Below are positions 9,834 to 56,197 of a stretch of DNA of 64,000 bases, piece by piece. Under the pieces are notes generated by a model. The model did not search any database. It saw only the letters and a list, made by a program, of their open reading frames with translations, and was not told the origin of the DNA. Numbering within the stretch: position 1 is the stretch's first letter; each line of letters opens with the position of its first letter. Where the stretch lies: NCBI GenBank assembly GCA_026625185.1, contig CP113000.1:2043124-2107123 (forward strand), given 5' to 3'. A program made the position numbers and the translations under genes. The DNA is from Thermodesulfobacteriota bacterium (GTDB lineage: Bacteria > Desulfobacterota > WTBG01 > JAGOGO01).

Positions 9834-9853
9834 CAAAAGAAGGATTTCAGGTC

Positions 9854-12160: not shown

Positions 12161-12417
12161 AACAGTTTAAGAAAATTTACCTGATAGAATTTTTACAGGT
12201 TGTCAAAAAAAGTTATAATTCTTCTTTTCCCCGATCTTATTATTCCCGTCCATAGAACTTTCTCGCCTGATTTACTCCTTTTTTGTAAGGAACCTAGTTG
12301 ACATTTTACTTTTGAAAATTTGTTTAATAATTATCTCGTTATAAAGTAAAAAAATTAGAAAATGGAATTATGACCCGGTCTCGGGAAAAATGAAAATGAA
12401 GGAGAAAAAATAGGGAG

Positions 12418-12448
12418 AATTTTACTGTTAGGTATAAATTATGCTTGT
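12418..12448 (+). promoter_or_regulatory. Conserved promoter-like motif AATTTTACTGTTAGGTATAAATTATGCTT upstream of the fdh operon. It has sigma-54-like GG-N10-GC spacing and alternatively reads as a -10-like GGTATAAA.
   Basis: Nearly identical to 22106..22136 upstream of the hydrogenase operon. GG and GC are 10 nt apart, as in TGGCAC-N5-TTGCW. Confidence 0.35.
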
Positions 12449-12959
12449 TGGAAAATGCTTGTTGGGGAAAAGAACAAAGCTGACACTGGATTTGGGTAAA
12501 TAATTAATCCGGAGTTGGCACATAGTCAAAGCGTAAAACGATGATTTTGTTTTCTGCCCGTGGTAAGGATGTCGGCTTCATGAAAAATCCCTCAGTACTG
12601 TCATTTTGGGCAACTTGACGATTTTTTTTATAAAACTTGTAAAAAGGATAAGGTTTCTTCCCGCAGCCGAAAAACCAGGGTCAGCAAAATCGGACTTTTT
12701 GCGAAGCTGTCGAGGGTAATTAATTTGGGAAAAATATGGGGCAGGGGTAGAGATTTCTTTGAATGCGGTAAAATTTATGATAACCTCGCCTACCAAGTTA
12801 AGTATTGCAGTTGAATAGAGCCATTAAGAGACAAAGTATAAAGAAGTCACTTTCGATAACCACCGATAAACCGAGAGAAAATTCGATTTATTAAGTGATA
12901 CTAATTTTTTTATATTTTTATAGTTCACTCTGATTCCAGGTAAAAAAAGGAGTTTAATT

Positions 12960-15659
12960 GTGCAAGAAATTAAGTTCACCATCAATGGAAAAGATGTGAC
13001 AGGGGGAAAGGGCCAAACTATTCTTGAGATTGCTTTGAAAAATGGATTTGATATCCCATACTTATGTTATCATCCCAAGATCAGCAAAACCGGTGCTTGT
13101 CGTATGTGTATTGTTCGGGTTAATGAGGTAATGTTAAAAACAGCCTGCACAGAGCCGGCAATGGAGGGGATGAAAGTAATTACTGAGGATGAAGAGATAA
13201 TAAAAATAAGAAAGGGGATTTTAGAACTCCTTCTTGCCGAAGGCGACCATAATTGCCTTTATTGTGATGCCAATGGTGCATGTGAATTACAGACCCTTGT
13301 ACACCGATATAATATTGATCAGGTAGCTTACGAATATCCTAAACGAAACCGCGAGATTGATTATGAATCGAGTGAGGGTCTGAAGAGAAATGAAAACAGA
13401 TGCATCCTCTGTGGAAGATGTGTGAAGGCATGTGGGGAGATCCAGTTATCAAATGTGTGGAGTTTTACTGATAGAGGAGGTCATACTCACCTTACCTCAG
13501 GTTTATATGAAAAGATCGGGGATTCGAGTTGTGTTAAATGCGGCGCATGTGTTCAGTTGTGTCCCACTGGTTCCCTTTCATTCCAGACGGTCCTTGGGAG
13601 AGGTGAAAATTGGGAACTCACAAAGGAATCAAGCATCTGTATTTACTGCGGGGTTGGATGTAAGATTGACTACTATAAAAACAAGGAGGGTCTACTTGTA
13701 AAGACTATTGGTCATGATGATGGACCCAACCGGGGACATCTCTGCGTTAAGGGAAGATTTGGATTTGATTTTATTCAGAACGGAAAGAGATTATCAAAAC
13801 CCCTTATCAAGCGAAACGGTGTATTCGAGGAGGCAAGCTGGGATGAAGCCCTCGATCTTGTTGCCAGTAAGTTTATTGAGATAAAAGACAAGTATGGTCC
13901 TGATTCTATTGCTGCACTATCTTCAGCGAAATGCACAAATGAAGAGAATTATTTGATGCAAAAAATTATGCGGGCAGTAATCGGGACGAATAATGTAGAT
14001 CACTGCGCTCGTCTCTGACACAGCTCAACCGTCGCCGGTCTGGCGGCTGTATTTGGTTCCGGAGCAATGACTAACTCTATCCGTGAGGTGCCTCTTTCAG
14101 AAGGTTTTCTGGTAATAGGTTCCAACACCACAGAAAACCACCCGGTCATCGGTTCGATGATAATGAAAGAAGTGATTAATCAGGGCAAGAAGCTGATAGT
14201 AGTCGACCCCCGTGAGATTGAGCTTTCCCGATATGCCGATTATTATTTTCAAATCAAGCCAGGTACAAATATCGCGATCCTCAACGGTTTTATGCATGTG
14301 CTGATTAAGGAAGGAATTTTCAATAAAGAATACGTCGAGAAGCGGTGCGAAGGCTTTGAGGCGATGGCGAAAATCCTTGAGAAATATAACCCTGAATTTG
14401 TCGCAGAGATTTGCGGAATTGATAATCCGGAAGATATTGTTAAAGCAGCGCGTCTCATGGCGCAGCTAAAACCTATGGCTCTCTATTATGCAATGGGGAT
14501 TACCCAGTTTGTCTCAGGGGTAAATGGCGTAAAGTCTACGGCAAACCTTCAGATGCTCCTCGGTAATTTAGGCATCCCGGGTGGAGGAGTTAATCCCTTG
14601 CGGGGACAGAATAATGTGCAAGGCGCATGCGATATGGGCGCGCTTAATGCGGTGTATCCCGCATATCAACCGGTTGCAAGTGAGGAGAATAAAGAAAAGT
14701 TTGAAAAGGCATGGGGTGTTTCAGGATTGCCTACCAAACCGGGTCTTACCATAGTTGAGATGTTTAATGCTGCAGTTGCCGGAAATTTAAAGGCAGTATA
14801 TGAGATGGGCGAGAACCCTGTGATGTCCGATCCCAATCAACACCATGTGATTGAAGCGCTTGAAGCTCTGAATTTTTTTGTTGTTCAGGATATTTTTTTT
14901 ACGGAGACAGCCCAGTATGCTGATGTGGTATTACCGGCATGTTCGTTTCTCGAAAAAGAGGGAACGGTAACCAATACCGAGAGAAGGATTCAACCCATGC
15001 ACAGGGTGCTTCCGCCCTGGGGTGACGCGAGGGATGATTGGTGGATCACCATGCAGATAGCCAATAGAATGGGCGCACAATGGGATTATAAAAAGCCTGA
15101 GGATATCTTTGAGGAGATAAGGATGGTTACTCCCTCCTATGCGGGAATCACGTATGAAAGGGTTGAGAAGGAACTGATACAGTGGCCATGCCCTGCGAAA
15201 GATCATCCGGGAACACAGTATCTGCACAAGGAAAAGTTTTCACGGGGACTTGGTTTACTTACGGGGATAGATTATACCCCGCCGGCAGAAGAAACCGACA
15301 CTGACTATCCTGTAATCCTGACGACCGGACGTATCCTCGAACATTTTCATACCGGAACCATGACCAGAAACTCAAAAATTCTTGATGAGATTGTGCCTGA
15401 GGGATTTGTGGAAATTCATCCCAACGATGCAAAAATTTATAACATCACGGATGGCGAAGTTATATCTATATCTTCGAGGAGGGGTAGCATCAGAATTAGG
15501 GCAAGGGTTACGGATAGGTCGAAACCCAATGTGGTTTTTATTCCATTTCATTTCTTCGAAGCGGCTGCGAACGAACTGACTATAGATGCTCTTGATCCGA
15601 CATGTAAGATCCCGGAGTACAAAGTGTGCTCTTGCAAGATTGAAAAAATTTATCTGTAA
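12960..15659 (+). CDS. fdhA: Formate dehydrogenase alpha subunit, a selenocysteine-containing molybdopterin enzyme with an N-terminal 2Fe-2S/4Fe-4S NuoG-like domain. Single gene read through the in-frame TGA at 14016..14018.
   Basis: The track splits it into 12960..14018 and 14067..15659 in the same frame. The sequence around the TGA reads [31 protein letters not shown], matching the FdhF active-site context CARV-U-HGPSVAGL. The N-terminus has ferredoxin-type Cys clusters. The C-terminus is MopB_CT-like. GTG start with an AAGGAG RBS. Confidence 0.85.
14016..14060 (+). promoter_or_regulatory. Sec codon (UGA) plus downstream SECIS-like hairpin GUCGCC-GGUCU-GGCGGC
   Basis: The hairpin starts about 13 nt 3' of the UGA. 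The GGUCU apical region resembles the E. coli fdhF SECIS loop. Confidence 0.5.
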
Positions 15660-15674
15660 AGGCGGTGATGGGAG

Positions 15675-17498
15675 ATGTTAACAACAGAGGACATTAAAGG
15701 CGTAATCGAGAAAAGAGGAAGCTCAAAAGAACATCTTATGTTTATATTGCGGGATCTCGAGAATATTTCTGGTAATAATCAACTTGAAATTGATGTGTTG
15801 GAGAAAGTAGCTGAGATAACAAAAATCCCAAAGAGCACCATTGCAGGTTTTGTGGGCTTCTACACCATGTTCAAGACAAATCCCAGGGCACCCTTTATTA
15901 TAAGGGTTTGCAAGTCAGGGCCTTGTCATGTTATGGGGGCAAGAACAATTTTTGATGCAGTAGAGCGAAATTTAGGCATTAAGCCTGGAGAAGCAACCCC
16001 TGATGGTCTGTTTTACCTTGAACAGTGTGAATGCCTTGGTGTTTGTTCGGTAGCCCCTGCTATGATGATAAACTACGATATCCATGGTAACCTTACTGAG
16101 AAAAAAATAAAACAAATTTTAGAGTCTTATAAATCCCAAAAGGCAATTTTTGGAGAAAAATGCGGGCCGGAGGTAGAAGGAAAGGCTTGCGTTATTGATG
16201 ATGATAGACAGACAAAGAGACTTTTAGTCATGGTCGGCAAAGTCGACCCTCTTAGCATTGACAGTTATATAAAAAATGGCGGTTATGCCGCGATAAGAAA
16301 GGCCATCAGAGAATATTCTTCAGATGATGTGATCAATATTGTGAAGGATTCAGGGCTCAGTGGCAGAGGTGGCGCGGGATTCCCGGCAGGGTTAAAGTGG
16401 TCATTTATGCCGAAGGGGGATATGCAAAAGTACGTAATTTGTAATGCCGACGAAGGGGAACCGGGAACTTTTAAAGACAGGGTTCTGATGGAGGAAAATC
16501 CTCACTTGATTATTGAGGGGATGCTGCTTTGCGGATATGCGACCGGCGCCACCGTTGGTTATATTTACGTGCGAGGGGAATTCAGGCGCGCTATTGAAAG
16601 ACTTCAAAGAGCCATTGACCAGGCAAGAGAAAGCCGAATGTTGGGGAAGCACCTTTCCGGTTCGACATTCAGCTTTGATATTTTCATCAAAGAAGGTGGT
16701 GGGGCGTATGTATGCGGTGAGGAATCATCGCTTATGAATTCAATGGAAGGCAAGCGGGGTTTTCCGCGGTTCAGACCACCATTTCCCGCGGGTGCTGGTT
16801 TTATGGGGATGCCGTCGAACGTCAATAATGTTGAGACATACGCATCGGTCCCGATGATTATTGAGCATGGTGCCACGTGGTATAAGTCACTGGGCACAGA
16901 AAAGTGCTCTGGAACAAAACTTTACTGCCTATCCGGTAAGCTGAACAGAACAGGGCTGGTTGAACTGCCCATGGGGACAACCCTTCGTGAACTCATTGAT
17001 ATATATGGTAAAGGCATTAAAGATGGAAAAACCTTTAAATTTGCCCAGGTGGGCGGTTCAGCTGGGGGCGTTTTTGGTGAGGATTTGCTTGACCTCCCTC
17101 TTGATATAGATCAGACAATAAAAGCTGGTGTTACGCTTGGTTCCGGAGTTGTGCTTGCGTGCGATAAGGATACCTGTGCGGTTGATTTTCTTCTAAATAT
17201 AATCAGTTTTTTTGCGCACGAATCCTGTGGTCAGTGTGTCCCTTGCAGGGTCGGGACATCACAGTTACACTTTCTTGCAAAGAAATTTGCAATGAGGACA
17301 GCAGTAGAAAAGGATATTGATTCTATGATTGAAAAAGCACAGTTGATGAAGCAGGCTTCTCTTTGTGCGCTCGGGCAATCACCTATATTACCTATTACAA
17401 CCACATTGAAATATTTCAGGGAGGAGTTTTTGAATCACTGTAATACAAGATACAGTTGCCCTGAGTGTGACATGACGTTGGAAAGGTTTTACAGGTAA
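15675..17498 (+). CDS. fdhB: Formate dehydrogenase beta (diaphorase) subunit, a NuoE-like 2Fe-2S domain fused to a NuoF-like FMN/NAD(H)-binding 4Fe-4S domain
   Basis: The N-terminal thioredoxin-like 2Fe-2S Cys pattern is CKSGPC...CECLGVC. It is followed by GRGGAGFPAGLKW and CNADEGEPGTFKDR (NuoF 51-kDa signatures) and a C-terminal CGQCVPCR. Confidence 0.8.
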   Translation: MLTTEDIKGVIEKRGSSKEHLMFILRDLENISGNNQLEIDVLEKVAEITKIPKSTIAGFVGFYTMFKTNPRAPFIIRVCKSGPCHVMGARTIFDAVERNLGIKPGEATPDGLFYLEQCECLGVCSVAPAMMINYDIHGNLTEKKIKQILESYKSQKAIFGEKCGPEVEGKACVIDDDRQTKRLLVMVGKVDPLSIDSYIKNGGYAAIRKAIREYSSDDVINIVKDSGLSGRGGAGFPAGLKWSFMPKGDMQKYVICNADEGEPGTFKDRVLMEENPHLIIEGMLLCGYATGATVGYIYVRGEFRRAIERLQRAIDQARESRMLGKHLSGSTFSFDIFIKEGGGAYVCGEESSLMNSMEGKRGFPRFRPPFPAGAGFMGMPSNVNNVETYASVPMIIEHGATWYKSLGTEKCSGTKLYCLSGKLNRTGLVELPMGTTLRELIDIYGKGIKDGKTFKFAQVGGSAGGVFGEDLLDLPLDIDQTIKAGVTLGSGVVLACDKDTCAVDFLLNIISFFAHESCGQCVPCRVGTSQLHFLAKKFAMRTAVEKDIDSMIEKAQLMKQASLCALGQSPILPITTTLKYFREEFLNHCNTRYSCPECDMTLERFYR

Positions 17499-17533
17499 AA
17501 AAATAACATTTAATTCTTGATAAGGAGAAAGAG

Positions 17534-18352
17534 ATGGCTCATAAACCTGTAGAAATTGTTGAGTTGGCTGGAGATGCTGGGAAATACAAGGGAAATCTGA
17601 CGCCGGGAAACTGGTTGATAAGGAGTTTCATGGCGGGACTTTTTATTGCGGTGGGCGGAGCCCTTGCCACGGTCTGTTCCACCGGGACAACAATTCCGGG
17701 CATTAAATCCCTCATTGCCGGGGCGGTCTTCCCGGTCGGCCTCATCGCGATTGTTATTACTGGTATGTCGCTTTTTACCGGTGATACCATGCTGATTCCC
17801 ATGGCGGTATTTCAGAAAAAAACCACCTGGGGAAAAGTTTTTAACGGGTGGTTATGGGTTTATATCGGAAATTTCATCGGTTCGCTTTTCTGGGCTTATA
17901 TAATGGCGGTTGGGCCTTTCTGCAAGGGGGGTGGTTCGGAGCTAACCATTTTCGGTCAAAGTGCGATTGCAATATCCGAAGCAAAAACATTACCTTATAT
18001 GACGGTCGGCGGTATGGGACTCTGGTCGGCATTCATGAAGGGCATCGCCTGCAACCTGCTCGTGAACGTTGCCATCTTGCTGGCACTTTCATCGAAGAGT
18101 ATGGTGGGTAAGTTTTTCGGGATCTGGTTCCCGATCATGGCCTTCGTATCATCAGGCTTTGAACACTGCGTGGCCAATATGTATTTTATTCCTGTGGGAA
18201 TAATGATGGGTGCAAATGTTAGTTGGGGTCAGTTCATCCAATGGAACCTGATCCCGGTTACTCTCGGCAATATCGTCGGAGGGTTCGTATTTATCGGTGC
18301 GGTCTATTTCTGGTCATTTAAGAAGGAACTATCCACTGTAGCTCAAACCTAA
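17534..18352 (+). CDS. focA: Formate/nitrite transporter family channel (FocA/NirC-like)
   Basis: Six-TM protein with FNT-family signatures (GMSLFTGDTM, NLLVNVAI, FEHCVANMYFIP). Directly follows fdhB. Confidence 0.8.
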   Translation: MAHKPVEIVELAGDAGKYKGNLTPGNWLIRSFMAGLFIAVGGALATVCSTGTTIPGIKSLIAGAVFPVGLIAIVITGMSLFTGDTMLIPMAVFQKKTTWGKVFNGWLWVYIGNFIGSLFWAYIMAVGPFCKGGGSELTIFGQSAIAISEAKTLPYMTVGGMGLWSAFMKGIACNLLVNVAILLALSSKSMVGKFFGIWFPIMAFVSSGFEHCVANMYFIPVGIMMGANVSWGQFIQWNLIPVTLGNIVGGFVFIGAVYFWSFKKELSTVAQT

Positions 18353-18421
18353 ACAATGCCCGGCCGAAAATGATCGGTTTGTATCATGTGCTTGAAAGTG
18401 GGAACAAAATTTAAATAACGT

Positions 18422-18463
18422 AAACAAATGCCCCGACCACCAAATGGTCGGGGCATTTGTTTT
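18422..18463. terminator. Perfect hairpin AAACAAATGCCCCGACCA-ccaaa-TGGTCGGGGCATTTGTTT followed by TTATT, between convergent focA and the CBS gene
   Basis: Read directly in the sequence. 18-bp stem. Confidence 0.7.
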
Positions 18464-18551
18464 ATTCTGTCAAATATCAAAAAGACGCTTCCTACCACCA
18501 GGGCGTAAGCCCGTGGGCATCTACATCTCTTAAGGTTGTACAGGAGGTTAT

Positions 18552-19312
18552 ACGTACTTTCCTGCAATTTAGTCACTTAGTTGTGCGATAAGACTTTCTT
18601 TTTCATAGATGATTGCCTTTATCGCATCCCCGATAGAAATTAATCCAACCAACTTATTTTTGTCAAAAACAGGTAGATGTCTTACATGCTTACCCGTCAT
18701 AAGCACCATGCATTCTTCAACGGTGTTTTCAGGTTTTACAATGAGCGGAGGTGAGGTCATGATTTCTTGAACGAGGGTATCTCTTGACGTTCTCCCTTTC
18801 AGAATAATCTTCCTCGCGTAATCTCGTTCTGAGACGATACCGATTATCTTTCCCTTTTCTATAACTACTAAAGCCCCGATGTCCTTTTCCCCCTTGATAT
18901 GCAGTGCCTCAAACACCGTGGCAGTTGGTGAGATTGACCAGACCTCATTTTTTTTTCTCTTTCAGAATGTCGTTGACGGTTTTCATAATTTGCCTCCTTC
19001 TCAAAAAAATATTGTTATATTGTCAAGATGTTTTGCAGTCATTATTAAGTCCATCGGGCGATACACATATTAAAAACCTAAAAAAGTACCTCCGCGCAAA
19101 AAAGTATTTTATTTTAAAAACTTACCTATCTTAAAATCATTGCTTTACGGAGTTTATTTTTCAAGTCAGATTTTTTTACAGAACCTCAAACAAGAGGTCC
19201 TTAAAATGTTTGCATTTTTTCCCTATTTTGCTCGAAGACCTTAGTTTTTTATGCAAAAGATGATTTTATAGGGTGGAAAAAATATTGTTTTTTTGTATTC
19301 TTAAAATAAAAA
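18552..19312. repeat. Segmental duplication, copy 1: the 3' end of the CBS gene plus its about 300-bp upstream AT-rich region
   Basis: 18552..18660 aligns with 21650..21740 and 19025..19312 aligns with 21770..22092, at roughly 80-85% identity. Confidence 0.6.
18569..18916 (-). CDS. CBS-pair domain protein
   Basis: Two CBS motifs (IMTSPPLIVKPENTV..HLPV and KLVGLISIGDAIK). On the minus strand upstream there is TTGACA..., a GGAGG RBS, then the ATG. Confidence 0.75.
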   Translation of the reverse strand: MFEALHIKGEKDIGALVVIEKGKIIGIVSERDYARKIILKGRTSRDTLVQEIMTSPPLIVKPENTVEECMVLMTGKHVRHLPVFDKNKLVGLISIGDAIKAIIYEKESLIAQLSD

Positions 19313-19870
19313 TATAAAAAAAATATGGGTAAAGTTTAAAATTCCGGACCAACAATGGGGAAAACATCAAGTAGGAATTAAATTACACTGTCAGAAATGT
19401 TCAAGTGCGAGATACCTGTCTCTTGTTGACGTTTTTCATTACGATAACTGTAAGTTCTCATTAAAACTTCAACTCTATTGAAAGAAAAATTTGTTTCGAG
19501 TGATTGGATATATTATCATGAGCTTTACAGCTAAATTATGGACGGGGTATTAGTACTAATGATTTTGATATGGGGAATGTCGGTTAATACTCTTTCTTAA
19601 GAGTGATTACCAAGGGATATTGGTTTAATCTGTACCCCCATTTTTTAACCCGCTTCTTCTCAGACCTGATTGGCCACTTTCAAAAGAAGGACCGATAATC
19701 GGGATTGGGACAATTGGGCCATCTATTTGTTATTCTTTAAATTACGAAGCATATGTCCTGACCGAGAGTTCACCAATTGCCTGTTACAACCATGAAATCC
19801 GCTTTTAAATTGTTTCAACCTATTATAAAAACTGATAAAATTACAAACGGTTTTTTACGGTGTAGTCTCA

Positions 19871-20488
19871 ATGTGTAGCCTCAATAATTTTAGAAACACC
19901 ATGGCCAGTGTTATTCTTGCGGGCGGTGAAAGCTCTCGAATGGGTAAAAATAAGGCTTTTATTGAGGTTAACGGCGTCCGTATGATAGATCGTACGGTAT
20001 CCCTTTTAAAAGAAATTTTTGACGAAGTTATACTGGTTACCAATTCACCTTTTGAATTCCTAGATCTCGACATCAAGATAGTAAAAGACCTTATCCCAAA
20101 GATAGGTCCTCTGGGAGGCATTTATACGGGTCTTTTTTTCTCATCTTCACCGAAAGCCTTTTTTGTTGGCTGTGATATGCCATTCCTTAACAAAGAAGTT
20201 ATCCAATATTTCCTTGACTTAGCTGAGACAGCGGAGATTGTAGTTCATCGACTAAATGACTATTGGGAGCCCCTCCATGCGGTTTATTCCCGCAGTTTTA
20301 TGAAATCAATTGAAAGACTTATTGAGCTAGGTGAACGAAAAATAATAAAAGGCTATAAATGGACAAAAGTGCATGAAGTAACGAGAGAAGAACTTACGCT
20401 CTTGGACCCGGACTTGCGCTCGTTGCTTAATTTTAATACCCCCGAGGAGTTAAAAAAACTTTTGGATATATACACACCATATGGGTAG
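19871..20488 (+). CDS. mobA: Molybdenum cofactor guanylyltransferase MobA-like nucleotidyltransferase
   Basis: VILAGGESSRMGKNKAF at the N-terminus, about 195 aa, MobA-like fold. The start may be the internal ATG at 19901. Confidence 0.7.
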   Translation: MCSLNNFRNTMASVILAGGESSRMGKNKAFIEVNGVRMIDRTVSLLKEIFDEVILVTNSPFEFLDLDIKIVKDLIPKIGPLGGIYTGLFFSSSPKAFFVGCDMPFLNKEVIQYFLDLAETAEIVVHRLNDYWEPLHAVYSRSFMKSIERLIELGERKIIKGYKWTKVHEVTREELTLLDPDLRSLLNFNTPEELKKLLDIYTPYG

Positions 20489-21212
20489 CCAGGTTACCAG
20501 CCGGGAGTTTACTGACAGTCTGGAACACCCCGTCATCCATCAAATTAGATTTTTTCTCTTCTATTCTGTGTACGCCAAGCGATTTAAAGGAGTTAGCAGT
20601 GGGATGGCTATTTAACCAAGGGTATATCGAATCGGTAAGTGATATGGCCGTCTTGGTTTTCTGCGAGGATATGAACGACATTAGCATGCAACTTACCAAT
20701 TTCCGGTACAAGGAAAGGGAAAGGGAACAGATTATCAAAACCTCGGCATGCATGGGCGGTGAGATTTCTTACCGGCAGTTTTTCAAAGACACACCAAAGT
20801 TAAGCGGGGACCTAGGTTAACGATTCGGCTTCTCAAATCTCTTACGAAGAAAGCGTTATCCATGGCACACCATTACAAGGCCACGGGGGGACTCCACTTA
20901 TGCCACCATCGCCTCAGCAAGCAGTCAACAGATTGATACATTTTTCGAGGACGTAGGCCGACACAATGGGGTAGATAAGGCTATGGGAAGGATGCTTCTC
21001 ACCAGCGGCAGGATTTCTTCTGAAATGGCGCTCAAGGCGGTTCACGGAAATATTAGTATTGTAGCCAGCCTAACACCTGTACGAATCTCGGCGCCCAAAT
21101 AGCGGAGGAAGCAGGTCTGACCCTTGTATGCCGTGTACTGAGAGCCTGGCCTGTTCTTTGGTGCGGCGCACAAAGGATCGTAGCTGATGATGAAGGAAAA
21201 GGTGCCCAGTAA
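20461..21212 (+). pseudogene. fdhD: fdhD (formate dehydrogenase accessory sulfurtransferase) pseudogene, with at least three frameshifts and an internal stop
   Basis: FdhD-like peptides lie in alternating frames: CTPSDLKELAVGWLFNQGYIES..KTSACMGGE (frame 1, stop at 20818), then ATGGLH (frame 0), then EDVGRHNGVDKAMG..LLTSGRISSEMALKA..ISIVASLTPVRISAP (frame 1, stop), then IAEEAGLTLV (frame 0). No in-frame start codon. Confidence 0.6.
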
Positions 21213-21320
21213 ATTGCCACCTGACCGTGGTCCAAATATCGGGTTTGTAAATTGACCTTTCGAAATAATATTTCTGGGATAAGAAATGGCCTAATGAAAA
21301 GATCTCAGGGTGAAAAACTA

Positions 21321-21368
21321 AATGCGGCGTGTTTGATTCTGGCGGGAGGAGAGGGTAAGAGCCTATGA
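21321..21368 (+). pseudogene. 16-codon fragment resembling the MobA N-terminus (NAACLILAGGEGKSL*)
   Basis: Nucleotide-level similarity to 19910..19950 (ATTCTTGCGGGCGGTGAAAGC versus ATTCTGGCGGGAGGAGAGGGT). It stops after 16 codons. Confidence 0.3.
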
Positions 21369-21430
21369 AAATCACGACCTCGGTTGACAACCTATGTTAT
21401 CATAGGAAACTACTTTATAGGAGGTCGTGT

Positions 21431-21626
21431 TATGACAAAAGCCCAAAGGGATATTGCAAGAAAGATCCGGGTTCTTCAGTATGCGCAAGACGGTATGTTG
21501 GTTGTGGGTCTCGTGATCGTCTTGGTCTACAAAAAAAACCGGAGAAAAAAGCCGCTTAAGATACGTTCGCTTCCAATCTGCGGTGTCCCATTCAAGTCCA
21601 TTGCGGCAATCCATCCTACTCGTTAA
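21431..21626 (+). CDS. Hypothetical small membrane protein (65 aa)
   Basis: A GGAGG RBS is 6 nt upstream of the ATG. One hydrophobic helix then a basic tail. No recognisable family. Confidence 0.25.
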
Positions 21627-21649
21627 TGTTTATTAAACTTCTTTTTCTG

Positions 21650-22092
21650 CAATTTAGTCGCTTAGTTGTGTGAGAAGACTCTCTTGTTCAGAAATGATTG
21701 TTTTTTTTATTACCTCCCCAATAGAAATTAATCCACCTAACTTTTGTTTTCTTTATTTTCAATAGTCATTAATAAGCCCATCAGTCGAAACGCATATTAA
21801 AAACCTAAAAAAATACCCCCGCGCAAAAAGTATTTTATTTTAAAAATTTACCTATCTTAAAATCATTGCTTTACGGAGTTTATTTTGCTGGCCAGATTTT
21901 TTTACAGGATGTCAAATAAAAGATTCTTAAGATGTTTATATTTCTATTCCCCTTTTACTCGAAGGGATTATTTTTTTGCAAATGAAAATTTTGTTAGGGT
22001 GAAACATATTGATTTTTTTTGTATTATTAAGATAAAATTTCATTATGGTGAAAAAAATATTGTTTTTTTGTATTATTAAGATAATATTTAAT
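21650..22092. repeat. Segmental duplication, copy 2. It lacks the CBS gene body, retains about 90 bp of the CBS 3' end as a remnant, and has an internal tandem duplication near its end.
   Basis: Aligned by eye to 18552..19312. GGTGAAA(A/C)ATATTG(A)TTTTTTTTGTATTATTAAGATAA occurs twice in tandem at about 21995..22085. Confidence 0.6.
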
Positions 22093-22105
22093 TTCGGGAG
22101 GAAGA

Positions 22106-22136
22106 AATTTTTACTGTTGGTATAAGTTGTGCAATC
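22106..22136 (+). promoter_or_regulatory. Conserved promoter-like motif AATTTTTACTGTTGGTATAAGTTGTGCAAT upstream of the hydrogenase operon (GG-N10-GC, extended -10-like TGGTATAAG)
   Basis: Matches the motif at 12418..12448. About 75 nt upstream of the 22213 start. Confidence 0.35.
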
Positions 22137-22212: not shown

Positions 22213-23262
22213 ATGGAATTAAAGAAAATTGATAAGCCTGATCTAGGTCTCTTTCTTCAGAATCTTATCAAGGATTTTCAGGTGGAGGGGGTTAAAAGAA
22301 AAGGGCAGTCTGTTTATGGCCAGTCCTTTTTTTATGGTTCAATCAATGCTCCCGATGAGCTATGCTTGGATTTTGACTGTACGACCATGCCTCCCAAAAA
22401 GTATTTTATCCCCCCCAAAGAAGAATTGCTTAAATTCACTATCGCCCCTAAACCGGAAGTTGCTGAGGTGATCGAAAGCAAACCGCTTATAATCTTTGGC
22501 GTCCATCCTTATGACCTTAAGGCTGTTAATCAAATGGATAAAATCTTTAGCGAAGGGAACCCGGATCCCAATTATTTAAAACGAAGAGAAGGAATTTTAC
22601 TTATTGGGGTTGATCCGACAAAGGTTTCCCCTCGTTCTTTCTGGAACTCCATGGAGGCAGCTTCAGTATCATCAGGCTTTGATTTGATGCTCACGGATAT
22701 CGGCGAAAGCTATCTGGTAGAGGTAGGAACCGATAAGGGCGGCAATCTTCTCAAAAAGTATGCAAAGGTTAGCTCAGTTACTAAGGAAGAAGAACAAAAG
22801 CGAATCGACGTCAGATCTAAGATCTGGAATATGTGTAAAAAAAGAGCGCTGAACTTTCCTATGCGAGAACTGCCTTCTTTGTTGGTTAATTCTCTGAATA
22901 GTCCTCTTTGGGATGAAAAAGCGAGCAAATGTCTTAGTTGTGTGACCTGTAATATGGTTTGCCCGACGTGCTACTGTTTCGATGTATGGGATGATGTTGA
23001 GCTTGACCTTACCCATGGGCAACGTTATCGCCGTTGGGACGGATGCTTAGCTTCTGATTTTGCAAAAGTTGCCACCGGAGAGAATTTTCGCGAGACTCGG
23101 GCTGCAAGATACCGTCATCGTTTTCTCCGCAAAGGACAATACCTGTTTTCTAAATTAAATGATGCTGCGTGTGTGGGGTGTGGCCGATGTGCGGCATATT
23201 GTCTCCCTGATATTGCCGATCCGGTGGATGTCTTTAATAGATTAAAGGAAGCTGTGAAATAA
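22213..23262 (+). CDS. Sulfhydrogenase-type [NiFe] hydrogenase beta subunit (4Fe-4S, HydB/AsrA-like)
   Basis: CLSCVTCNMVCPTCYC and CVGCGRCAAYC ferredoxin-like clusters. Architecture typical of group 3b/3d beta subunits. Confidence 0.7.
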   Translation: MELKKIDKPDLGLFLQNLIKDFQVEGVKRKGQSVYGQSFFYGSINAPDELCLDFDCTTMPPKKYFIPPKEELLKFTIAPKPEVAEVIESKPLIIFGVHPYDLKAVNQMDKIFSEGNPDPNYLKRREGILLIGVDPTKVSPRSFWNSMEAASVSSGFDLMLTDIGESYLVEVGTDKGGNLLKKYAKVSSVTKEEEQKRIDVRSKIWNMCKKRALNFPMRELPSLLVNSLNSPLWDEKASKCLSCVTCNMVCPTCYCFDVWDDVELDLTHGQRYRRWDGCLASDFAKVATGENFRETRAARYRHRFLRKGQYLFSKLNDAACVGCGRCAAYCLPDIADPVDVFNRLKEAVK

Positions 23263-23276
23263 GGAGGGAATCTATC

Positions 23277-24113
23277 ATGAATCATTCGATGCCAGACGGT
23301 TCTCCTTATGTACCCAAGTGGGCGGAGATTTCCCGAATCGAGAAGCTTACGGAAAGTGAGAAACTTTTTGAATTACGCCTCTCGAATGGGCAGCCGTTGG
23401 GTCATAAGCCCGGTCAGTTTGTAGAAGTATCTGTTCTGGGGATTGGAGAGGCTCCCATATCAATTTCTTCTCCCCCAATAAATGATAATTCTTTTGAACT
23501 GGCAGTTCGAAAGGTAGGGAATGTTACCAATGCGATGCACAACCTTGGGGTTGGGGGCAAGCTTGGAATTCGAGGACCTTTTGGCACCAATTTTCCAATT
23601 GATGAAGCTAAGGGGAAAGATATTTTATTTGTGGCTGGAGGAATCGGGTTGGTTCCCTTACGGTCCTTTATCAAATTTGTGCTGGAAAATAGAAAAGACT
23701 ATGGAGAGGTTACGGTCTTATTCGGTGCCCGTAATCCCTCGGAGCAGCTTTTTCTCAGCGAACTTGAGCAATGGAGGGGGAGAAAGGATATCTCGTACCT
23801 GGAGACAGTAGATCGAGCCGACGAAAATTGGAAAGGAAACGTTGGGGTTATCACCACCCTTTTTCCTAAAGTTCAAGTTGATCCTGCTAAAACGATATGT
23901 GTTGTGGTTGGCCCTCCGGTAATGTATCGATTTGTTATCATGGAGACAAAAGCGAAGGGCATACCGGACAAGCAAATTTTCCTTTCCCTCGAAAGAAGAA
24001 TGAAGTGTGGACTGGGGAAATGCGGTCATTGCCAGATCAATAATATTTATGTCTGTCAGGATGGTCCGGTGTTAAGGTATTCGGATATCTTTGCTTTAGA
24101 GGAGGCGCTGTGA
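23277..24113 (+). CDS. Hydrogenase gamma subunit: FNR-like FAD/NAD(P)-binding oxidoreductase with a C-terminal 2Fe-2S motif
   Basis: FAD-binding RLSNGQP/GHKPGQFV, NAD-binding GGIGLVPLRS, C-terminal CGLGKCGHCQ. Confidence 0.7.
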   Translation: MNHSMPDGSPYVPKWAEISRIEKLTESEKLFELRLSNGQPLGHKPGQFVEVSVLGIGEAPISISSPPINDNSFELAVRKVGNVTNAMHNLGVGGKLGIRGPFGTNFPIDEAKGKDILFVAGGIGLVPLRSFIKFVLENRKDYGEVTVLFGARNPSEQLFLSELEQWRGRKDISYLETVDRADENWKGNVGVITTLFPKVQVDPAKTICVVVGPPVMYRFVIMETKAKGIPDKQIFLSLERRMKCGLGKCGHCQINNIYVCQDGPVLRYSDIFALEEAL

Positions 24114-24853
24114 TGGATAAACCAAGAGTAGCTTTTTTTGATTTTGCGAGCTGCGAGGGTGATCAGCTCCAAATCGTAAACCTGGAAGAGGACCTCTTGA
24201 AGGTAGTTGGGGCGGTAGATGTTGTGAGTTTCAGGGAAGCCATGAAAGGGCACTCGGACAATTATGACATCGCCTTTGTTGAGGGTTCGATTACTCGTCG
24301 CTCAGATGAACCGAGGCTTTTGGAAATTCGTAAAAATGCAAAAATTTTAGTAGCAATTGGAGCATGCGCTACGATAGGGGGCGTTAACTTGCTCAAAAAT
24401 TTTCAGGACCTGGAAAGCGTAAGAAAATTTGTTTATGGAGATAAGTTTTTCCAGTATGAGACCTACCCGGCCCGACCTATCAAAGCAGTGGTTCCGGTAG
24501 ATCTCGAAATCCATCAATGTCCTATAAATCGGGATGAATTTGTCATGGCATTTAAAGCGCTTCTTATGGGGAAAAAACCGGAATTTCCCAATTATCCGGT
24601 ATGCGAGGACTGTAAAAAAGCTGAAAATATTTGCGTTTTCGAAATGGGGATGACCTGCATGGGACCGGTTACCCGAGCAGGTTGCGGAGCTTGTTGCGTT
24701 GTGGAAGGAAGCGTGTGCTGGGGATGCCGTGGATTTATTGATCATCCCAATGCGGACTCGGAAAGAGAAGTCTTGGCTAAGTATGGTCTGAGTGTAGGCG
24801 ACATTCTTAAAAAATTTCGACTTTACACTGGCTTTTCGGAGGTGTCAAAATGA
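24110..24853 (+). CDS. [NiFe] hydrogenase small (delta) subunit, Oxidored_q6/NuoB-like
   Basis: VAFFDFASCEGDQLQ, GACATIGGV, and a distal cluster CPINRDEF...CEDCK..C. Confidence 0.75.
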   Translation: MMDKPRVAFFDFASCEGDQLQIVNLEEDLLKVVGAVDVVSFREAMKGHSDNYDIAFVEGSITRRSDEPRLLEIRKNAKILVAIGACATIGGVNLLKNFQDLESVRKFVYGDKFFQYETYPARPIKAVVPVDLEIHQCPINRDEFVMAFKALLMGKKPEFPNYPVCEDCKKAENICVFEMGMTCMGPVTRAGCGACCVVEGSVCWGCRGFIDHPNADSEREVLAKYGLSVGDILKKFRLYTGFSEVSK

Positions 24854-26124
24854 ATGGTAAAAAAGTCATACAGATTCACCATGTTACCCGCATAGAGGGT
24901 CATGGAAATATCGATATTCAAATTAAAGACGGTAAGGTAGATAAATGTCAGTGGCAGATAGTTGAGGCTCCTCGATTTTTCGAAGCCGCGCTTCGGGGAC
25001 GAAAATGGAATGAAGCCGCCCACATTACCTCGAGGATCTGTGCAATTTGTTCCATTGGCCACACCCTCTGTTCGTTAAAAGCTACTGAGGCAGCCCTGGG
25101 CATCACAATATCCGAACAGACCCTTAAACTCCGCAAACTGTTGATAAATGGCGAGACTCTTCAGAGCCACATTCTTCACTTGGGATACCTGGTAGTTCCT
25201 GACCTTGTAGGAGCGCCGAGCGTTATTCCTCTCGCTTCCACCCATCCGGCAGAAGTGCTTCTCGTTGTCCGACTTCATCGCTTGGCTAATGAAATGTCCG
25301 ACCTGATCGGGGGTCGCACCATTCACCCCCAGCGTCCGGTGGTAGGAGGATTTGCCAAGTGGCCGACCGTGGCCGAATTGGAGAACCTATACCAAAAATT
25401 AGAATCAGCGCAATCTGATGTCATGACATTGGCAGGTTTTGTCAAAGGTCTTGCCCCGAATTTTCCAAAATTTTCTCGGGAGACTGAATATATTGGACTC
25501 ACTCACCCTACTGAATATGCGTTCTACGAAGGAGAGATCGCTTCTACCGATGGAGGAAAATGGCCGGTAGATAACTATAAGAGCATTGTTAATGAATACT
25601 TAGTTCCGCATTCTACTGCCAAGTTTGCCCGGCACAAACGGGATGCTTATATGGTGGGTGCTCTTGCTCGTTTCAATTTGAACTATAACAAACTTCTCCC
25701 CGGAGCCAAGAAGCTTGCTGATGATGTTGGTCTTAAACCCATCAACTTCAATCCCTTTATGAATAATGTGGCCCAGCTGGTGGAAGTAGCTCATGCTTTT
25801 GAAGACTCAATGCAATTAACAAAAAAACTTTTAGAGAAATGGGATCCAGAAGAAAAACCGATTGTTTCTGTTAAAGCAGGACTGGGTTCCGGATCTGTTG
25901 AAGTGCCCAGAGGAATCCTTTTTCATGAATATGAATATAATAAAGATGGTGAGATTGTTTGGGCTAATTGTGTAATCCCCACCAACCAGAACCATGCAAA
26001 TATCCAAAAGGACATGGAAGCTCTGGTGGAGGAGATTAAAGAACGTCCACAAGAAGAAATTGAATTAATGGTGGAGATGCTGGTGCGGGCTTATGATCCC
26101 TGTGTTTCATGTTCCACCCATTAA
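24850..26124 (+). CDS. [NiFe] hydrogenase large (alpha) subunit
   Basis: N-terminal RIEGHG, RICAICSIGHT (the L1 CxxC motif) and C-terminal DPCVSCSTH (DPCxxCxxH). The ORF stops immediately after the His. Confidence 0.85.
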   Translation: MNGKKVIQIHHVTRIEGHGNIDIQIKDGKVDKCQWQIVEAPRFFEAALRGRKWNEAAHITSRICAICSIGHTLCSLKATEAALGITISEQTLKLRKLLINGETLQSHILHLGYLVVPDLVGAPSVIPLASTHPAEVLLVVRLHRLANEMSDLIGGRTIHPQRPVVGGFAKWPTVAELENLYQKLESAQSDVMTLAGFVKGLAPNFPKFSRETEYIGLTHPTEYAFYEGEIASTDGGKWPVDNYKSIVNEYLVPHSTAKFARHKRDAYMVGALARFNLNYNKLLPGAKKLADDVGLKPINFNPFMNNVAQLVEVAHAFEDSMQLTKKLLEKWDPEEKPIVSVKAGLGSGSVEVPRGILFHEYEYNKDGEIVWANCVIPTNQNHANIQKDMEALVEEIKERPQEEIELMVEMLVRAYDPCVSCSTH

Positions 26125-26174: not shown

Positions 26175-26585
26175 GTGATGGATAAGCCAAAAATCCTTAT
26201 CATCGATGACGATGCCGATGCCGTTGAGCTCATTCGCATTGCCTTAGAAGCCAATAATTATGATGTTTTTAGTGCTGGGAATGGGACTGAGGGACTCGCG
26301 TTAGTTAAAAAAATCCGTCCGGATCTTATTATTCTTGACGTAATGATGGATAGTGCCACTGAAGGTTTTCAAGTTTCCTATCAGATCAAGAGCAATGACC
26401 CAAAATCTGAATACCGAGACTTCTGCCGGACCCCGATTATTATGATGACCGGGATATCTCAACAGATGCATATGAAATTTTCCCCAACCCAAGATGGTGA
26501 TTACCTTCCGGTAGAGGAATTTTTAGAAAAACCTGTCCGGGTTGATCCGTTGTTGGAAAAGATCAGAAAATTGTTGAAGCGGTAA
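26175..26585 (+). CDS. Standalone response-regulator receiver (REC) domain protein
   Basis: ILIIDDDADAVELI..DLIILDVMMD. CheY-like, with no output domain. Confidence 0.75.
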   Translation: MMDKPKILIIDDDADAVELIRIALEANNYDVFSAGNGTEGLALVKKIRPDLIILDVMMDSATEGFQVSYQIKSNDPKSEYRDFCRTPIIMMTGISQQMHMKFSPTQDGDYLPVEEFLEKPVRVDPLLEKIRKLLKR

Positions 26586-26829
26586 AGATAAATAGAAATG
26601 TGGGATGGTTGAGAGACCTGCGAAGAATATTTCCCTTTCTTACATCACAAACATATATCGTGCTGCGGATCAGCGGGCTGACGGACACGCGAGCAAGTTC
26701 GCGGGGTCAGCTGTCCGTTGCAACCGCTTGATGGCCAGGCGCGAAGCGTCAGCGTCATCGTTGATTATAAAACGAACCCCCCCTCAAATGAATATCTTAA
26801 TGGTCTACCCAAAATTCGGCTCATAACAA

Positions 26830-28686: not shown

Positions 28687-29117
28687 GCAAAGATAATCTA
28701 TTTATATTATTCCGTTTGAGATAATCCCCGGTTACCCCTGAGTTTTTATTTTTTACCTCGTTTTGTGAGTTCGTTACCCCTTTATAGATTTTTCATGACT
28801 TCCTGATTCAGTTTTCAGCAGAAAAGTTTCCCCAGTACGGAGAAGGACCAATAGGCGTGTTTTTCGTTTAAAAAAGATGAAAAGTTTTTACAGGCTGTAA
28901 AAGTTGGAGAAAAATATTTTCTTTTTCCTTTTAAAAAATTGTCGCAAGGTTTAATGAACGAAAAATGACTTTAGAACTTCAAAAAATAAACGAGGTTTTT
29001 TTTTATTGCCGCCTGAAAAACCTGATGAATTTATTGTTTTCCGTTAAAAGATGATCGGAAAGTAATTAACGAAAAAAATTAGTAATAATTAACCCCTGAA
29101 AATCGTGTTGCTTTATA

Positions 29118-29135
29118 TTGGCATAACCTTTGCTT
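29118..29135 (+). promoter_or_regulatory. Sigma-54 (-24/-12) promoter TTGGCATAACCTTTGCTT
   Basis: TGGCAT-N5-TTGCT with correct GG-N10-GC spacing. It is about 35 nt upstream of the receiver gene that heads the REC-HK-NtrC operon. Confidence 0.55.
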
Positions 29136-29167
29136 TCCCTTTAGATTAGTTTTTAAAGGTGGTGCTA

Positions 29168-29551
29168 ATGAAAGAAAAATTTACTCTTTTAATTGCCGAC
29201 CGCAATCGAAATATCCGAGATTTTTTACAACGAGAACTTATTACGGATGGCTATCGGGTTCTCTTAGCCTGTGATGGCCGGCAAGTATTGAAAATCATAG
29301 AGAACGAAACTCCTGATCTTTTAATCATTGATCTTGACATTCCCTATGCGGATGAATTAAGAGTATTTGAACGACTCCAATCCGCGCATCAAGTGATCCC
29401 GGTACTCGTGCATACCTTGCCCTCTGCTGAAACGATCAACGGGTTTGTTCAGAGAGCGGCCGGGTTTGTAGAAAAAGACGGTAATAATATAACTAACCTT
29501 AAAGATACTATAATTCAAGTATTACGGAAGCATTATCCTCATCGGTTTTAA
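29168..29551 (+). CDS. Standalone receiver (REC) domain protein
   Basis: FTLLIADRN..DLLIIDLDIP. The track ORF starts three codons earlier at a GTG. The ATG at 29168 has an AAAGG RBS. Confidence 0.65.
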   Translation: MKEKFTLLIADRNRNIRDFLQRELITDGYRVLLACDGRQVLKIIENETPDLLIIDLDIPYADELRVFERLQSAHQVIPVLVHTLPSAETINGFVQRAAGFVEKDGNNITNLKDTIIQVLRKHYPHRF

Positions 29552-29717
29552 GTTGTAAACGCATATCGAAAACAAAGGCTTATTTCTCACGAGAACAAAC
29601 AAGACAAACATATATTAAAATTAAGGAGATATACTTTCTCCGAAAAATACGGGCAGAGACTTTACCCCCGGCTACTCTTATGATAAACTTTAGCGGGGGT
29701 AGTTTTTTTAATGAAAA

Positions 29718-56188: not shown

Positions 56189-56197
56189 TTTTTCTCC

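What the first reader, a model, noticed from the sequence alone, without database searches (positions are those of the whole stretch)
12418..22136. Near-identical promoter-like 29-nt motif upstream of both the formate-dehydrogenase and hydrogenase operons
The two motifs are AATTTTACTGTTAGGTATAAATTATGCTT at about 12418 and AATTTTTACTGTTGGTATAAGTTGTGCAA at about 22106. Both contain GG and GC separated by exactly 10 nt, as in sigma-54 promoters (TGGCAC-N5-TTGCW).

A much better sigma-54 consensus, TTGGCATAACCTTTGCTT, lies at 29118..29135 in front of the REC-HK-NtrC operon. This shows the organism uses sigma-54 promoters.

The shared motif suggests co-regulation of formate oxidation and H2 metabolism. 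Candidate regulators are the neighbouring NtrC-family activator (31163..32593) and its kinase. The alternative reading is a sigma-70 extended -10 (TGGTATAAG). The fdh motif is about 520 nt from its start codon, so any leader would be long.
Basis: partly seen in the sequence, partly recalled or inferred. Interest (0 to 1): 0.5.

Follow-up and report, generated by a model that had tools for sequence, protein, structure and literature searches.

The report
Shared sigma-54 promoter for fdh and hydrogenase
The two look-alike motifs are most likely weak variants of a conserved sigma-54 promoter which, paired with a conserved upstream palindrome, puts the formate dehydrogenase and hydrogenase operons under one neighbouring NtrC-type activator; this is a familiar kind of regulation seen here in an uncultured syntroph-like bacterium.

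Summary
TTTTACTGTT[A]GGTATAA[A/G]TT[A/G]TGC occurs only at 12420-12444 and 22109-22132, with GG-N10-GC in both.

- In seven 86-91% relatives, eight ~62% relatives and a 67% Desulfobacterales genome, the hydBGDA operon carries a sigma-54-type promoter: (G/A)GGCACAATTTATGC, TGGCACAGGGATTGCT or GGGCATGATTTATGT.
- MAFFT aligns both window motifs onto the promoter of the close relatives.
- I found a second shared element, the palindrome TTTAC-N5-GTAAA. It lies 217-238 nt upstream of the fdh motif, the hyd motif and the canonical promoter of the REC-HK-NtrC operon.
- The palindrome-plus-promoter pair also accompanies NtrC orthologues (85, 75, 72% identity), in two cases with no hydrogenase nearby. 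It is absent from 0.85 Mb of control loci. This points to the NtrC-type activator at 31163-32593 as the binder.
- fdh clusters of other lineages lack the module, so the fdh copy was recruited in this lineage.

Caveats:
- The window motifs (GGTAT instead of GGCAC) score below validated promoters.
- Pairwise similarity alone is only modestly significant.
- A third GGTATAA hit, before hypF, is better read as sigma-70.
- No transcription start data exist.

Verdict: new member of a known kind; moderate interest.

The parts
12192..12206 (+). Upstream palindrome (candidate activator-binding site) of the fdh module: TTTACAGGTTGTCAA
   Evidence: It starts 238 nt before the 18-nt promoter window that begins at 12430. 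It overlaps a sigma-70-like TTTACA-16-TATAAT.
12418..12446 (+). fdh motif as reported. The -24/-12 core is AGGTATAAATTATGCT at 12430-12445; the predicted start site, about 12455, is inferred.
12960..18352 (+). fdh operon: selenocysteine-containing FdhA (12960-15659, TGA at 14016-14018), NuoE/F-like subunit (15675-17498), FocA (17534-18352)
19175..19189 (+). Decayed paralogous palindrome TTTACAGAACCTCAA inside the duplicated segment 18548-19307. No promoter motif follows it.
21901..21915 (+). Upstream palindrome of the hyd module: TTTACAGGATGTCAA
   Evidence: It starts 217 nt before the promoter window that begins at 22118. It aligns with TTTACAGA(C/T)TGTCAA of relatives.
21985..22082 (+). Tandem 49-nt duplication between palindrome and promoter; a single copy in relatives
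22106..22134 (+). hyd motif as reported. The -24/-12 core is TGGTATAAGTTGTGCA at 22118-22133; the predicted start site, about 22144, is inferred.
22213..26124 (+). Group-3b-like (sulfhydrogenase-like) NiFe hydrogenase operon hydBGDA
26175..28686 (+). Single-domain receiver protein (26175-26585) and GAF histidine kinase (26830-28686). Both stay next to hydA in all relatives.
28887..28901 (+). Perfect palindrome TTTACAGGCTGTAAA upstream of the REC-HK-NtrC operon
   Evidence: Conserved in L060, L062, L089, L091, L092.
29119..29134 (+). Canonical sigma-54 promoter TGGCATAACCTTTGCT of the REC-HK-NtrC operon
   Evidence: top-scoring site of the window.
29159..32593 (+). Receiver protein (29159-29551), histidine kinase with a four-helix-bundle sensor (29718-31166), and NtrC-type activator with GAFTGA and a Fis-type helix-turn-helix (31163-32593)

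Best explanation
Each motif is the -24/-12 core of a sigma-54-dependent promoter. The core belongs to a two-part module: a palindromic upstream activating sequence, TTTAC-N5-GTAAA, about 220-240 bp upstream, plus a GG-N10-GC promoter.

Proposed mechanism:
1. The NtrC-type response regulator at 31163-32593 is phosphorylated through the adjacent kinase and receiver proteins.
2. It binds the palindrome, loops to RNA polymerase-sigma-54 held in closed complex at the motif, and uses ATP to open the promoter.
3. One signal therefore switches on the NAD-linked formate dehydrogenase/FocA operon, the NAD(P)-linked group-3b-like hydrogenase operon, and the regulator's own operon (positive autoregulation).

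The module is ancestral in front of hydBGDA. The copy in front of fdhA arose in this lineage when the fdh gene block came to lie between hypE and hydB.

Shown: the sequence elements, their conservation, their collinearity, and their association with NtrC orthologues.
Inferred: binding, sigma-54 dependence, start sites at about 12455 and 22144, and the nature of the signal (H2, formate or redox state).
For: Promoter conservation in relatives:
- Both motifs have GG-N10-GC.
- In relatives with 86-91% HydB identity (L060-L065, L091) the same position reads (G/A)GGCACAATTTATGC(T/C). MAFFT aligns both window motifs to it column for column.
- Relatives at ~62% carry TGGCACAGGGATTGCT about 300 nt before hydB. 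A 67% Desulfobacterales genome carries GGGCATGATTTATGT.

The palindrome:
- TTTAC-N5-GTAAA sits 217, 238 and 232 nt upstream of the hyd, fdh and NtrC-operon promoters.
- In relatives the distance is about 230 nt, 165 nt, or 116-123 nt.
- NtrC orthologues at 85, 75 and 72% identity have perfect palindromes 119-184 nt upstream of canonical sigma-54 promoters. In L093 and L094 no hydrogenase is nearby. One of these promoters reads TGGTATACGATTTGCT, showing the GGTAT variant in a bona fide context.
- In 0.85 Mb of control loci (L001-L059) no palindrome is followed by a sigma-54 site scoring 10 bits or more.

The activator:
- It has GAFTGA, a Walker A motif and a receiver aspartate.
- Its helix-turn-helix is nearly invariant across orthologues.

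Selective conservation:
- Between palindrome and motif, the fdh and hyd regions are no more alike than background (64%). Relatives are about 90% alike over the same interval.
- A duplicated copy of the hyd upstream region that has no hydrogenase operon behind it (19175) has lost the right half-site and has no motif.

Literature (PMC3844500):
[quoted passage not shown] Both are kept in GGTA.
- ChIP-enriched Salmonella ORFs have best predicted sites such as CGGTATAAATAATGCACG and TGGTACGTAAAATGCACG. Those assignments are in silico and partly low-scoring.
Against: - By position-weight matrices the window motifs are weak. With 27 Salmonella sites over 16 nt they score 9.5 (hyd) and 4.4 (fdh) bits, against a training minimum of 15.5. 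With 43 combined sites they score 11.9 and 8.7, against a minimum of 12.5. Several coding-region hits score as well.
- Both copies share the derived GGTATAA, which also resembles a -10 box.
- The pairwise similarity is only marginally significant under flat scoring.
- In L085 and L072/L074 no activator gene lies within the fetched flanks (about 6-10 kb each side), so the link to this NtrC rests on association, not adjacency everywhere.
- rpoN is not in the window.
- The palindrome at 12192 overlaps an 11/12 sigma-70 match.
- There are no transcript data.
Confidence: 0.62

Rival explanations
1. In this lineage the ancestral sigma-54 promoter has been converted into a sigma-70 promoter, or now works mainly as one. 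It would use the TATAA(A/G) created by the two C-to-T changes (extended -10 TGGTATAAG at hyd). The palindrome would be a relic, or a -35-like element or repressor site.
For: - Both copies share the derived GGTATAA, and hyd has TG one base upstream of TATAAG.
- Sigma-54 matrix scores are below those of validated promoters.
- The similar GGTATAAT site before hypF is best read as sigma-70: TTGAGA-17-TATAAT. L061 keeps its -35 and -10 but loses TGC.
- 12192-12219 is an 11/12 sigma-70 match.
Against: - TATAAA and TATAAG both lack the highly conserved final T of the -10 hexamer.
- There is no acceptable -35 at 16-18 bp, and the fdh copy lacks the TG.
- The consensus scan does not call either site.
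- GG and GC at 10-nt spacing are kept in both copies, and the palindrome is kept in both.
Confidence: 0.15
2. The motifs are non-functional. They would be decaying remnants of a duplicated promoter, or a chance resemblance in AT-rich DNA. The operons would then be driven from other promoters, for example a proximal sigma-70-like site at 12895-12924 for fdhA.
For: - Flat-scoring alignment gives p about 0.05-0.14.
- Matrix scores are comparable to hits inside coding regions.
- The region is heavily rearranged, with pseudogene fragments and duplications.
- The fdh leader would be about 500 nt long and shows no sign of structure.
Against: - Two collinear islands (palindrome and motif) are retained, while the DNA between them is at background similarity.
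- The copy of the region that has no operon behind it has lost both elements.
- The hyd motif is positionally orthologous to a promoter conserved down to ~62% HydB identity.
- Long leaders (about 280-300 nt) are normal for this promoter in relatives.
Confidence: 0.13
3. The shared 10-mer TTTTACTGTT, just upstream of GG, is the functional part. It would be an operator for a separate transcription factor, for example a repressor that overlaps the promoter. In that case the GG/GC spacing would be incidental.
For: - The 10-mer is identical in both copies and lies outside the region that sigma-54 normally constrains.
- It contains TTTAC, which resembles a half-site of the palindrome.
Against: - It is not conserved in any relative. 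The relatives read AAATTTTGATCGT(G/A) at that position.
- Its register relative to GG differs by 1 nt between the two copies.
- Its identity is explained simply by recent common descent of the two copies.
Confidence: 0.05

Closest known systems
FhlA / sigma-54 formate regulon of E. coli and Salmonella (fdhF, hyc, hyp, hydN)
   Same: One sigma-54 activator co-activates a formate dehydrogenase and a hydrogenase from -24/-12 promoters with upstream activating sequences. Salmonella fdhF (TGGCATAAAACATGCA) and hycA (TGGCATGGAAAATGCT) even share the ATGC -12 element seen here.
   Different: - FhlA is a one-component GAF-AAA+-HTH activator that senses formate. Here the activator is a receiver-domain (two-component) NtrC-type protein. 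Its FhlA model hit covers only the AAA+/HTH part (273.6 bits against a cutoff of 830).
- The enzymes differ: NAD-linked FdhA/NuoEF and a group-3b-like hydrogenase, not FDH-H with Hyd-3.
- The upstream site differs.
HoxA/HoxJ (Cupriavidus necator) and HupR/HupT type control of NiFe hydrogenase genes
   Same: From my own knowledge of this literature: an NtrC-family response regulator with a cognate histidine kinase, encoded beside hydrogenase genes, activates them. In C. necator this runs through sigma-54 promoters, and HupR binds a short palindrome.
   Different: - No regulatory (H2-sensing) hydrogenase HoxBC/HupUV is seen in the window.
- The hydrogenase class differs.
- Orthology was not tested.
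- HupR acts with sigma-70.
Predicted activator regulons of Desulfovibrio vulgaris Hildenborough (Kazakov et al. 2015, PMC4641369)
   Same: Same phylum-level setting and same logic. Activator genes lie next to sigma-54 promoters that have palindromic upstream sites, usually about 100 nt upstream and sometimes more than 300 nt. Autoregulated two-component activators are common there.
   Different: That paper's text reports no hydrogenase or formate dehydrogenase regulon and no TTTAC/GTAAA motif. Its supplementary files were not checked.

Membership tests
sigma-54 (-24/-12) promoter | GG and GC dinucleotides separated by exactly 10 nt | tested here: met
   GG 12431-12432 / GC 12443-12444; GG 22119-22120 / GC 22131-22132.
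sigma-54 (-24/-12) promoter | Overall match to TGGCAC-N5-TTGCW at the level of validated promoters | tested here: not met
   Scores over 16 nt are 9.5 and 4.4 bits (Salmonella matrix, training minimum 15.5) and 11.9 and 8.7 bits (combined matrix, minimum 12.5). Ranks are 5-50 of 128,000 positions. With a matrix built from relatives only, the scores are 10.0 and 11.1, against a minimum of 10.3.
sigma-54 (-24/-12) promoter | Orthologous sites in relatives conserve the -24/-12 elements | tested here: met
   (G/A)GGCACAATTTATGC, TGGCACAGGGATTGCT and GGGCATGATTTATGT upstream of hydB in about 16 loci. Both window motifs align to the close-relative form.
sigma-54 (-24/-12) promoter | Upstream activating sequence for an enhancer-binding protein | tested here: met
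   Palindrome TTTAC-N5-GTAAA 217-238 nt upstream. It is conserved in relatives and associated with NtrC orthologues.
sigma-54 (-24/-12) promoter | Organism encodes sigma-54 and an activator with GAFTGA | tested here: inconclusive
   An activator with GAFTGA is present. rpoN is not in the window. The canonical promoters at 29119 and 49150 imply that it exists.
sigma-54 (-24/-12) promoter | Start site about 12 nt downstream of GC; dependence on rpoN and on the activator | not testable with these tools
   Needs 5'-end mapping and genetics or in vitro transcription.
sigma-70 extended -10 promoter | TGnTATAAT with conserved A at position 2 and T at position 6 | tested here: not met
   hyd reads TGGTATAAG (no final T). 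fdh reads AGGTATAAA (no TG, no final T). Neither is called by the scan. Relatives have GGCACAAT at this position.
FhlA formate regulon | FhlA-type activator (GAF domains, no receiver domain) | tested here: not met
   The activator is REC-AAA+-HTH. The FhlA model scores 273.6 bits against a cutoff of 830 and matches only residues 140-469.

The most novel reading that the evidence does not exclude
A widely conserved but uncharacterised two-component activator of Desulfobacterota may act as a master switch for the cytoplasmic H2- and formate-handling enzymes used in interspecies electron transfer. Its components are a kinase with a four-helix-bundle sensor, an NtrC-type regulator and small receiver proteins; hundreds of homologues at 70-72% identity appear. 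It would recognise TTTAC-N5-GTAAA. In this lineage the formate route would have been wired into the hydrogenase regulon by copying the enhancer-promoter module. In addition, the shared GGCAC-to-GGTAT change may make the two promoters dual sigma-54/sigma-70 sites.
Probability: 0.3. Interest if true: 0.6.

Novelty: new member of a known kind. Interest (0 to 1): 0.4.

Why it matters
Syntrophic and fermentative Desulfobacterota dispose of reducing power as H2 or formate. How they choose and regulate the two routes is poorly known, because most are uncultured. This work gives a concrete, testable regulon: one activator, one 15-bp binding site, and three target promoters. It also gives an example of a metabolic operon being recruited into an existing regulon by duplication of an enhancer-promoter module. 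The general mechanism, sigma-54 with an NtrC-type activator controlling hydrogenase and formate dehydrogenase genes, is already well established in Proteobacteria. The value is therefore as a lead, not as a surprise.

Tried and rejected
- Genome relatives of FdhA (59 loci, at most 81% identity) show neither nucleotide similarity nor synteny with hyp/hyd in the fdh upstream region.
- Closer fdh relatives (L079 at 91%, L095 at 84%, L083 at 81%) lack the module. One further look-up returned no DNA.
- Rfam at gathering and at permissive thresholds found nothing in the 800-nt hypE-fdhA spacer.
- The 521-nt predicted fdh leader folds no better than shuffles (z = +0.97), so I dropped the idea of a riboswitch or leader RNA.
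- A strict IHF consensus is absent between palindrome and promoter in the window.
- The hypF site (TGGTATAATATTTGCT at 7262) first looked like a third member. I rejected it: TTGAGA-17-TATAAT is what is conserved, L061 loses the TGC, and there is no palindrome.
- The 18-nt Salmonella matrix proved misleading at its 3' end. It gave only 6.0 bits to a perfect TGGCACAGGGATTGCTGC, so I recomputed 16-nt matrices.
- A 10-nt overlap (TTTTTACTGT) between the hyd motif and a repeated element at 7279-7443 / 33271-33527 was judged coincidental.
- The D. vulgaris regulome paper has no matching motif in its text.
Full report
**1. Observation**

The two motifs are at the stated coordinates. They share TTTTACTGTT[A]GGTATAA[A/G]TT[A/G]TGC, which is 22 of 25 positions with one indel. 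GG and GC are exactly 10 nt apart in both. The core TTTACTGTT-N0-1-GGTATAA occurs nowhere else in the window on either strand.

- hypF, hypD and hypE (7512-12160);
- an 800-nt spacer;
- a selenocysteine-containing FdhA (12960-15659, TGA at 14016-14018 within HCARL-U-HSS), a NuoE/F-like subunit and FocA;
- a rearranged stretch (18353-22212) holding a CBS-domain gene, mobA and pseudogene fragments;
- a group-3b-like hydBGDA hydrogenase operon (22213-26124);
- a receiver protein, a GAF kinase, a second receiver, a second kinase, and an NtrC-type activator (31163-32593).

The best FdhA matches in genomes are Syntrophorhabdaceae, Syntrophus and Syntrophales MAGs at 74-81% identity.

**2. Is it more than chance?**

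Taken alone, only modestly.
- Local alignment of the two AT-rich spacers against 1000-2000 dinucleotide shuffles gives p about 0.05-0.14 with flat scoring.
- Composition-weighted scoring gives p about 0.0015-0.003 for the motif.
It is a second island, TTTTTACAGG(T/A)TGTCAA at 12190 and 21899 (p about 0.001-0.05).
- That island lies upstream of and collinear with the motif, 238 and 217 nt from the promoter window.
- Between the two islands the spacers are at background similarity (64%). Relatives are about 90% alike over the same interval.

This is the pattern expected if two short elements are under constraint.

**3. Comparative evidence for a sigma-54 promoter**

A metagenome scan with HydB gave relatives at 86-91% (L060-L066) and at about 62% (L067-L074).
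- In the close group, hypFCDE is followed directly by hydBGDA and the receiver/kinase genes. There is no fdh block, except in L064.
- All close relatives carry (G/A)GGCACAATTTATGC(T/C) about 285 nt before hydB.
- The distant group carries a textbook TGGCACAGGGATTGCT about 300 nt before hydB (126 nt in L071). In L068, L071, L072 and L074 a second promoter, TGGCAT(A/G)AGGATTGCT, faces the other way.
- A complete Desulfobacterales MAG (CP070697, HydB 67%) has GGGCATGATTTATGT.
- MAFFT aligns both window motifs onto the close relatives' promoter, GG under GG and GC under GC.

What is conserved is GG-N10-GC, not a -10 hexamer: relatives read GGCACAAT where the window reads GGTATAA. The window motifs are therefore lineage-specific variants (two C-to-T changes) of a conserved sigma-54-type promoter.

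**4. The upstream palindrome and the activator**

The second island is a palindrome, TTTAC-N5-GTAAA.
- It is perfect (TTTACAGGCTGTAAA) at 28887, 232 nt upstream of the canonical TGGCATAACCTTTGCT promoter of the REC-HK-NtrC operon.
- It has one mismatch (TGTCAA) at 12192 and at 21901.
- It is conserved upstream of hydB in every relative with enough sequence: about 230 nt from the promoter in the close group, 116-117 nt in the distant group, and 165 nt in L085.
- Where a divergent promoter is present, it has its own palindrome at 121-123 nt.

I then fetched orthologues of the NtrC-type protein at 96, 85, 75 and 72% identity. Each locus has perfect palindromes 119-232 nt upstream of canonical sigma-54 promoters next to the kinase-NtrC-receiver genes.
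- In L093 and L094 no hydrogenase lies within 10 kb.
- In L092 the same signalling genes follow a group-4 hydrogenase.
- One of these promoters reads TGGTATACGATTTGCT (L093), so GGTAT occurs in a convincing context.
- Among 0.85 Mb of unrelated control loci (L001-L059), no palindrome was followed by a sigma-54 site of 10 bits or more.

The activator has a receiver aspartate, a Walker A motif and GAFTGA. Its Fis-type helix-turn-helix is nearly invariant across the orthologues. This makes it the best candidate for the protein that binds the palindrome, and it implies positive autoregulation.

**5. Origin of the fdh copy**

The block fdhA-nuoEF-focA-CBS occurs in other genomes in other contexts (L079 at 91%, L095 at 84%, L083 at 81%). 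There it has neither palindrome nor sigma-54 promoter upstream.

In the window and in L064 the block lies between hypE and the hyd module. The window has a palindrome-plus-motif pair both right after hypE (now serving fdhA, with a leader of about 500 nt) and before hydB. The two window motifs share derived states (ACTGTT, GGTATAA) that the relatives lack. They are therefore paralogues by duplication or conversion within this lineage.

The region shows further rearrangement:
- a segmental duplication, 18548-19307 versus 21633-22082;
- a CBS gene remnant;
- frameshifted fdhD-like and mobA-like fragments.

The duplicated copy that has no hydrogenase operon behind it has lost the right half of the palindrome (19175) and has no motif. 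This serves as an internal control for selective maintenance.

**6. Weaknesses**

- A matrix from 27 ChIP-supported Salmonella sites (PMC3844500) gives 9.5 and 4.4 bits over 16 nt for hyd and fdh, against a training minimum of 15.5.
- Adding 16 sites from the relatives gives 11.9 and 8.7 bits, against a minimum of 12.5. Ranks are 5-50 of 128,000 positions, comparable to some coding-region hits.
- The sites are at best attenuated sigma-54 promoters. Alternatively they have shifted toward sigma-70 use.
- Against sigma-70: TATAAA and TATAAG lack the final T, no -35 is present, and the scan tool calls neither site.
- For tolerance of GGTA: the cited paper states that sigma-54 contacts GG and the T opposite the A, both of which are kept. 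It also lists best predicted sites such as CGGTATAAATAATGCACG for ChIP-enriched ORFs.
- The GGTATAAT site before hypF (7262) is not part of the system. TTGAGA-17-TATAAT is conserved there, L061 loses TGC, and no palindrome is present.
- rpoN itself is outside the window.
- In L072, L074 and L085 no activator gene lies in the fetched flanks.

**7. Mechanism, comparison and verdict**

The most likely mechanism is classical enhancer-dependent activation. The phosphorylated NtrC-type regulator binds the palindrome, loops over about 220-240 bp of AT-rich DNA, and remodels the sigma-54 closed complex at the motif. This would co-induce the formate dehydrogenase/FocA operon, the hydrogenase operon and the regulator's own operon.

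The logic matches the FhlA formate regulon of enterobacteria. Salmonella fdhF and hycA even have ATGC -12 elements. From my own knowledge, it also matches HoxA-type control of hydrogenases. The activator here is a receiver-domain protein, not FhlA, and no sensor hydrogenase is present.

Surveys already report sigma-54 control of NiFe hydrogenases and formate dehydrogenases, and activator genes in hydrogenase neighbourhoods (PMC12316311, PMC12727194). I therefore rate this a new member of a known kind. Its added value is a newly defined binding motif, a candidate regulon for an uncharacterised and widespread activator, and a clear case of an operon recruited into that regulon. Interest 0.4.

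Noticed in passing
window 49150-49280 and 49665-53477: A good sigma-54-type promoter (TGGCATTATAGTTGCT, 49150-49165) lies 34 nt before a c-di-GMP-I riboswitch (49199-49280, 56.6 bits). A flp pilin ORF and tad-type genes (RcpC, secretin) follow. This would combine enhancer-dependent transcription with a c-di-GMP riboswitch on a pilus operon.
   Followed up: partly
window 14016-14018: In-frame TGA within HCARL-U-HSS of FdhA. This is a selenocysteine codon, and gene callers split the protein into 352-aa and 530-aa products here and in all relatives.
   Followed up: partly
window 7279-7443 and 33271-33527: Two copies (~90% identical) of a short repeated element, one in the hypF leader and one upstream of ftsY. 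Relatives lack it at hypF. It may be a miniature mobile element.
   Followed up: partly
window 18548-19307 vs 21633-22082; 20481-21370: A segmental duplication covers a CBS-domain gene and its upstream region. The second copy is a gene remnant. Between the copies lie frameshifted fdhD-like and mobA-like fragments. This marks a rearrangement hotspot between the fdh and hyd operons.
   Followed up: partly
window 7233-7270: The hypF promoter is best read as sigma-70 (TTGAGA-17-TATAAT with TG), although it also matches TGGTAT-N5-TTGCT. L061 keeps the -35 and -10 but loses TGC.
   Followed up: yes
window 32594-33632; L089 4141-4572: Relatives encode a small receiver protein directly after the NtrC-type gene. 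In L093 and L094 that gene has its own palindrome and sigma-54 promoter. The window lacks the gene and has about 1 kb of non-coding sequence containing the repeated element.
   Followed up: partly
L072 891-2171 (-): This ORF encodes a receiver domain fused to a FocA-type formate/nitrite channel. It sits in an operon transcribed divergently from hydB from a sigma-54 promoter with its own palindrome.
   Followed up: no
L072 5583-5609; L094 4536-4562 and 11727-11753: In distant relatives the palindrome is followed by a further conserved element, TTTAC-N5-GTAAAAA-N3-4-(C)TGACAG. This suggests a longer, composite binding site.
   Followed up: no
window 21985-22082; L091 537-780: The spacing between palindrome and promoter is plastic. 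The window has a 49-nt tandem duplication there. L091 has an insertion of about 200-250 nt, giving 435 nt between the two elements.
   Followed up: partly
window 53939-63923 (-): A cluster of phage-tail-like proteins (Phage-tail_3, Rcc01698_C, a laminin-G-like domain) and a D12 adenine methyltransferase. This may be a prophage remnant or a gene-transfer-agent-like region.
   Followed up: no
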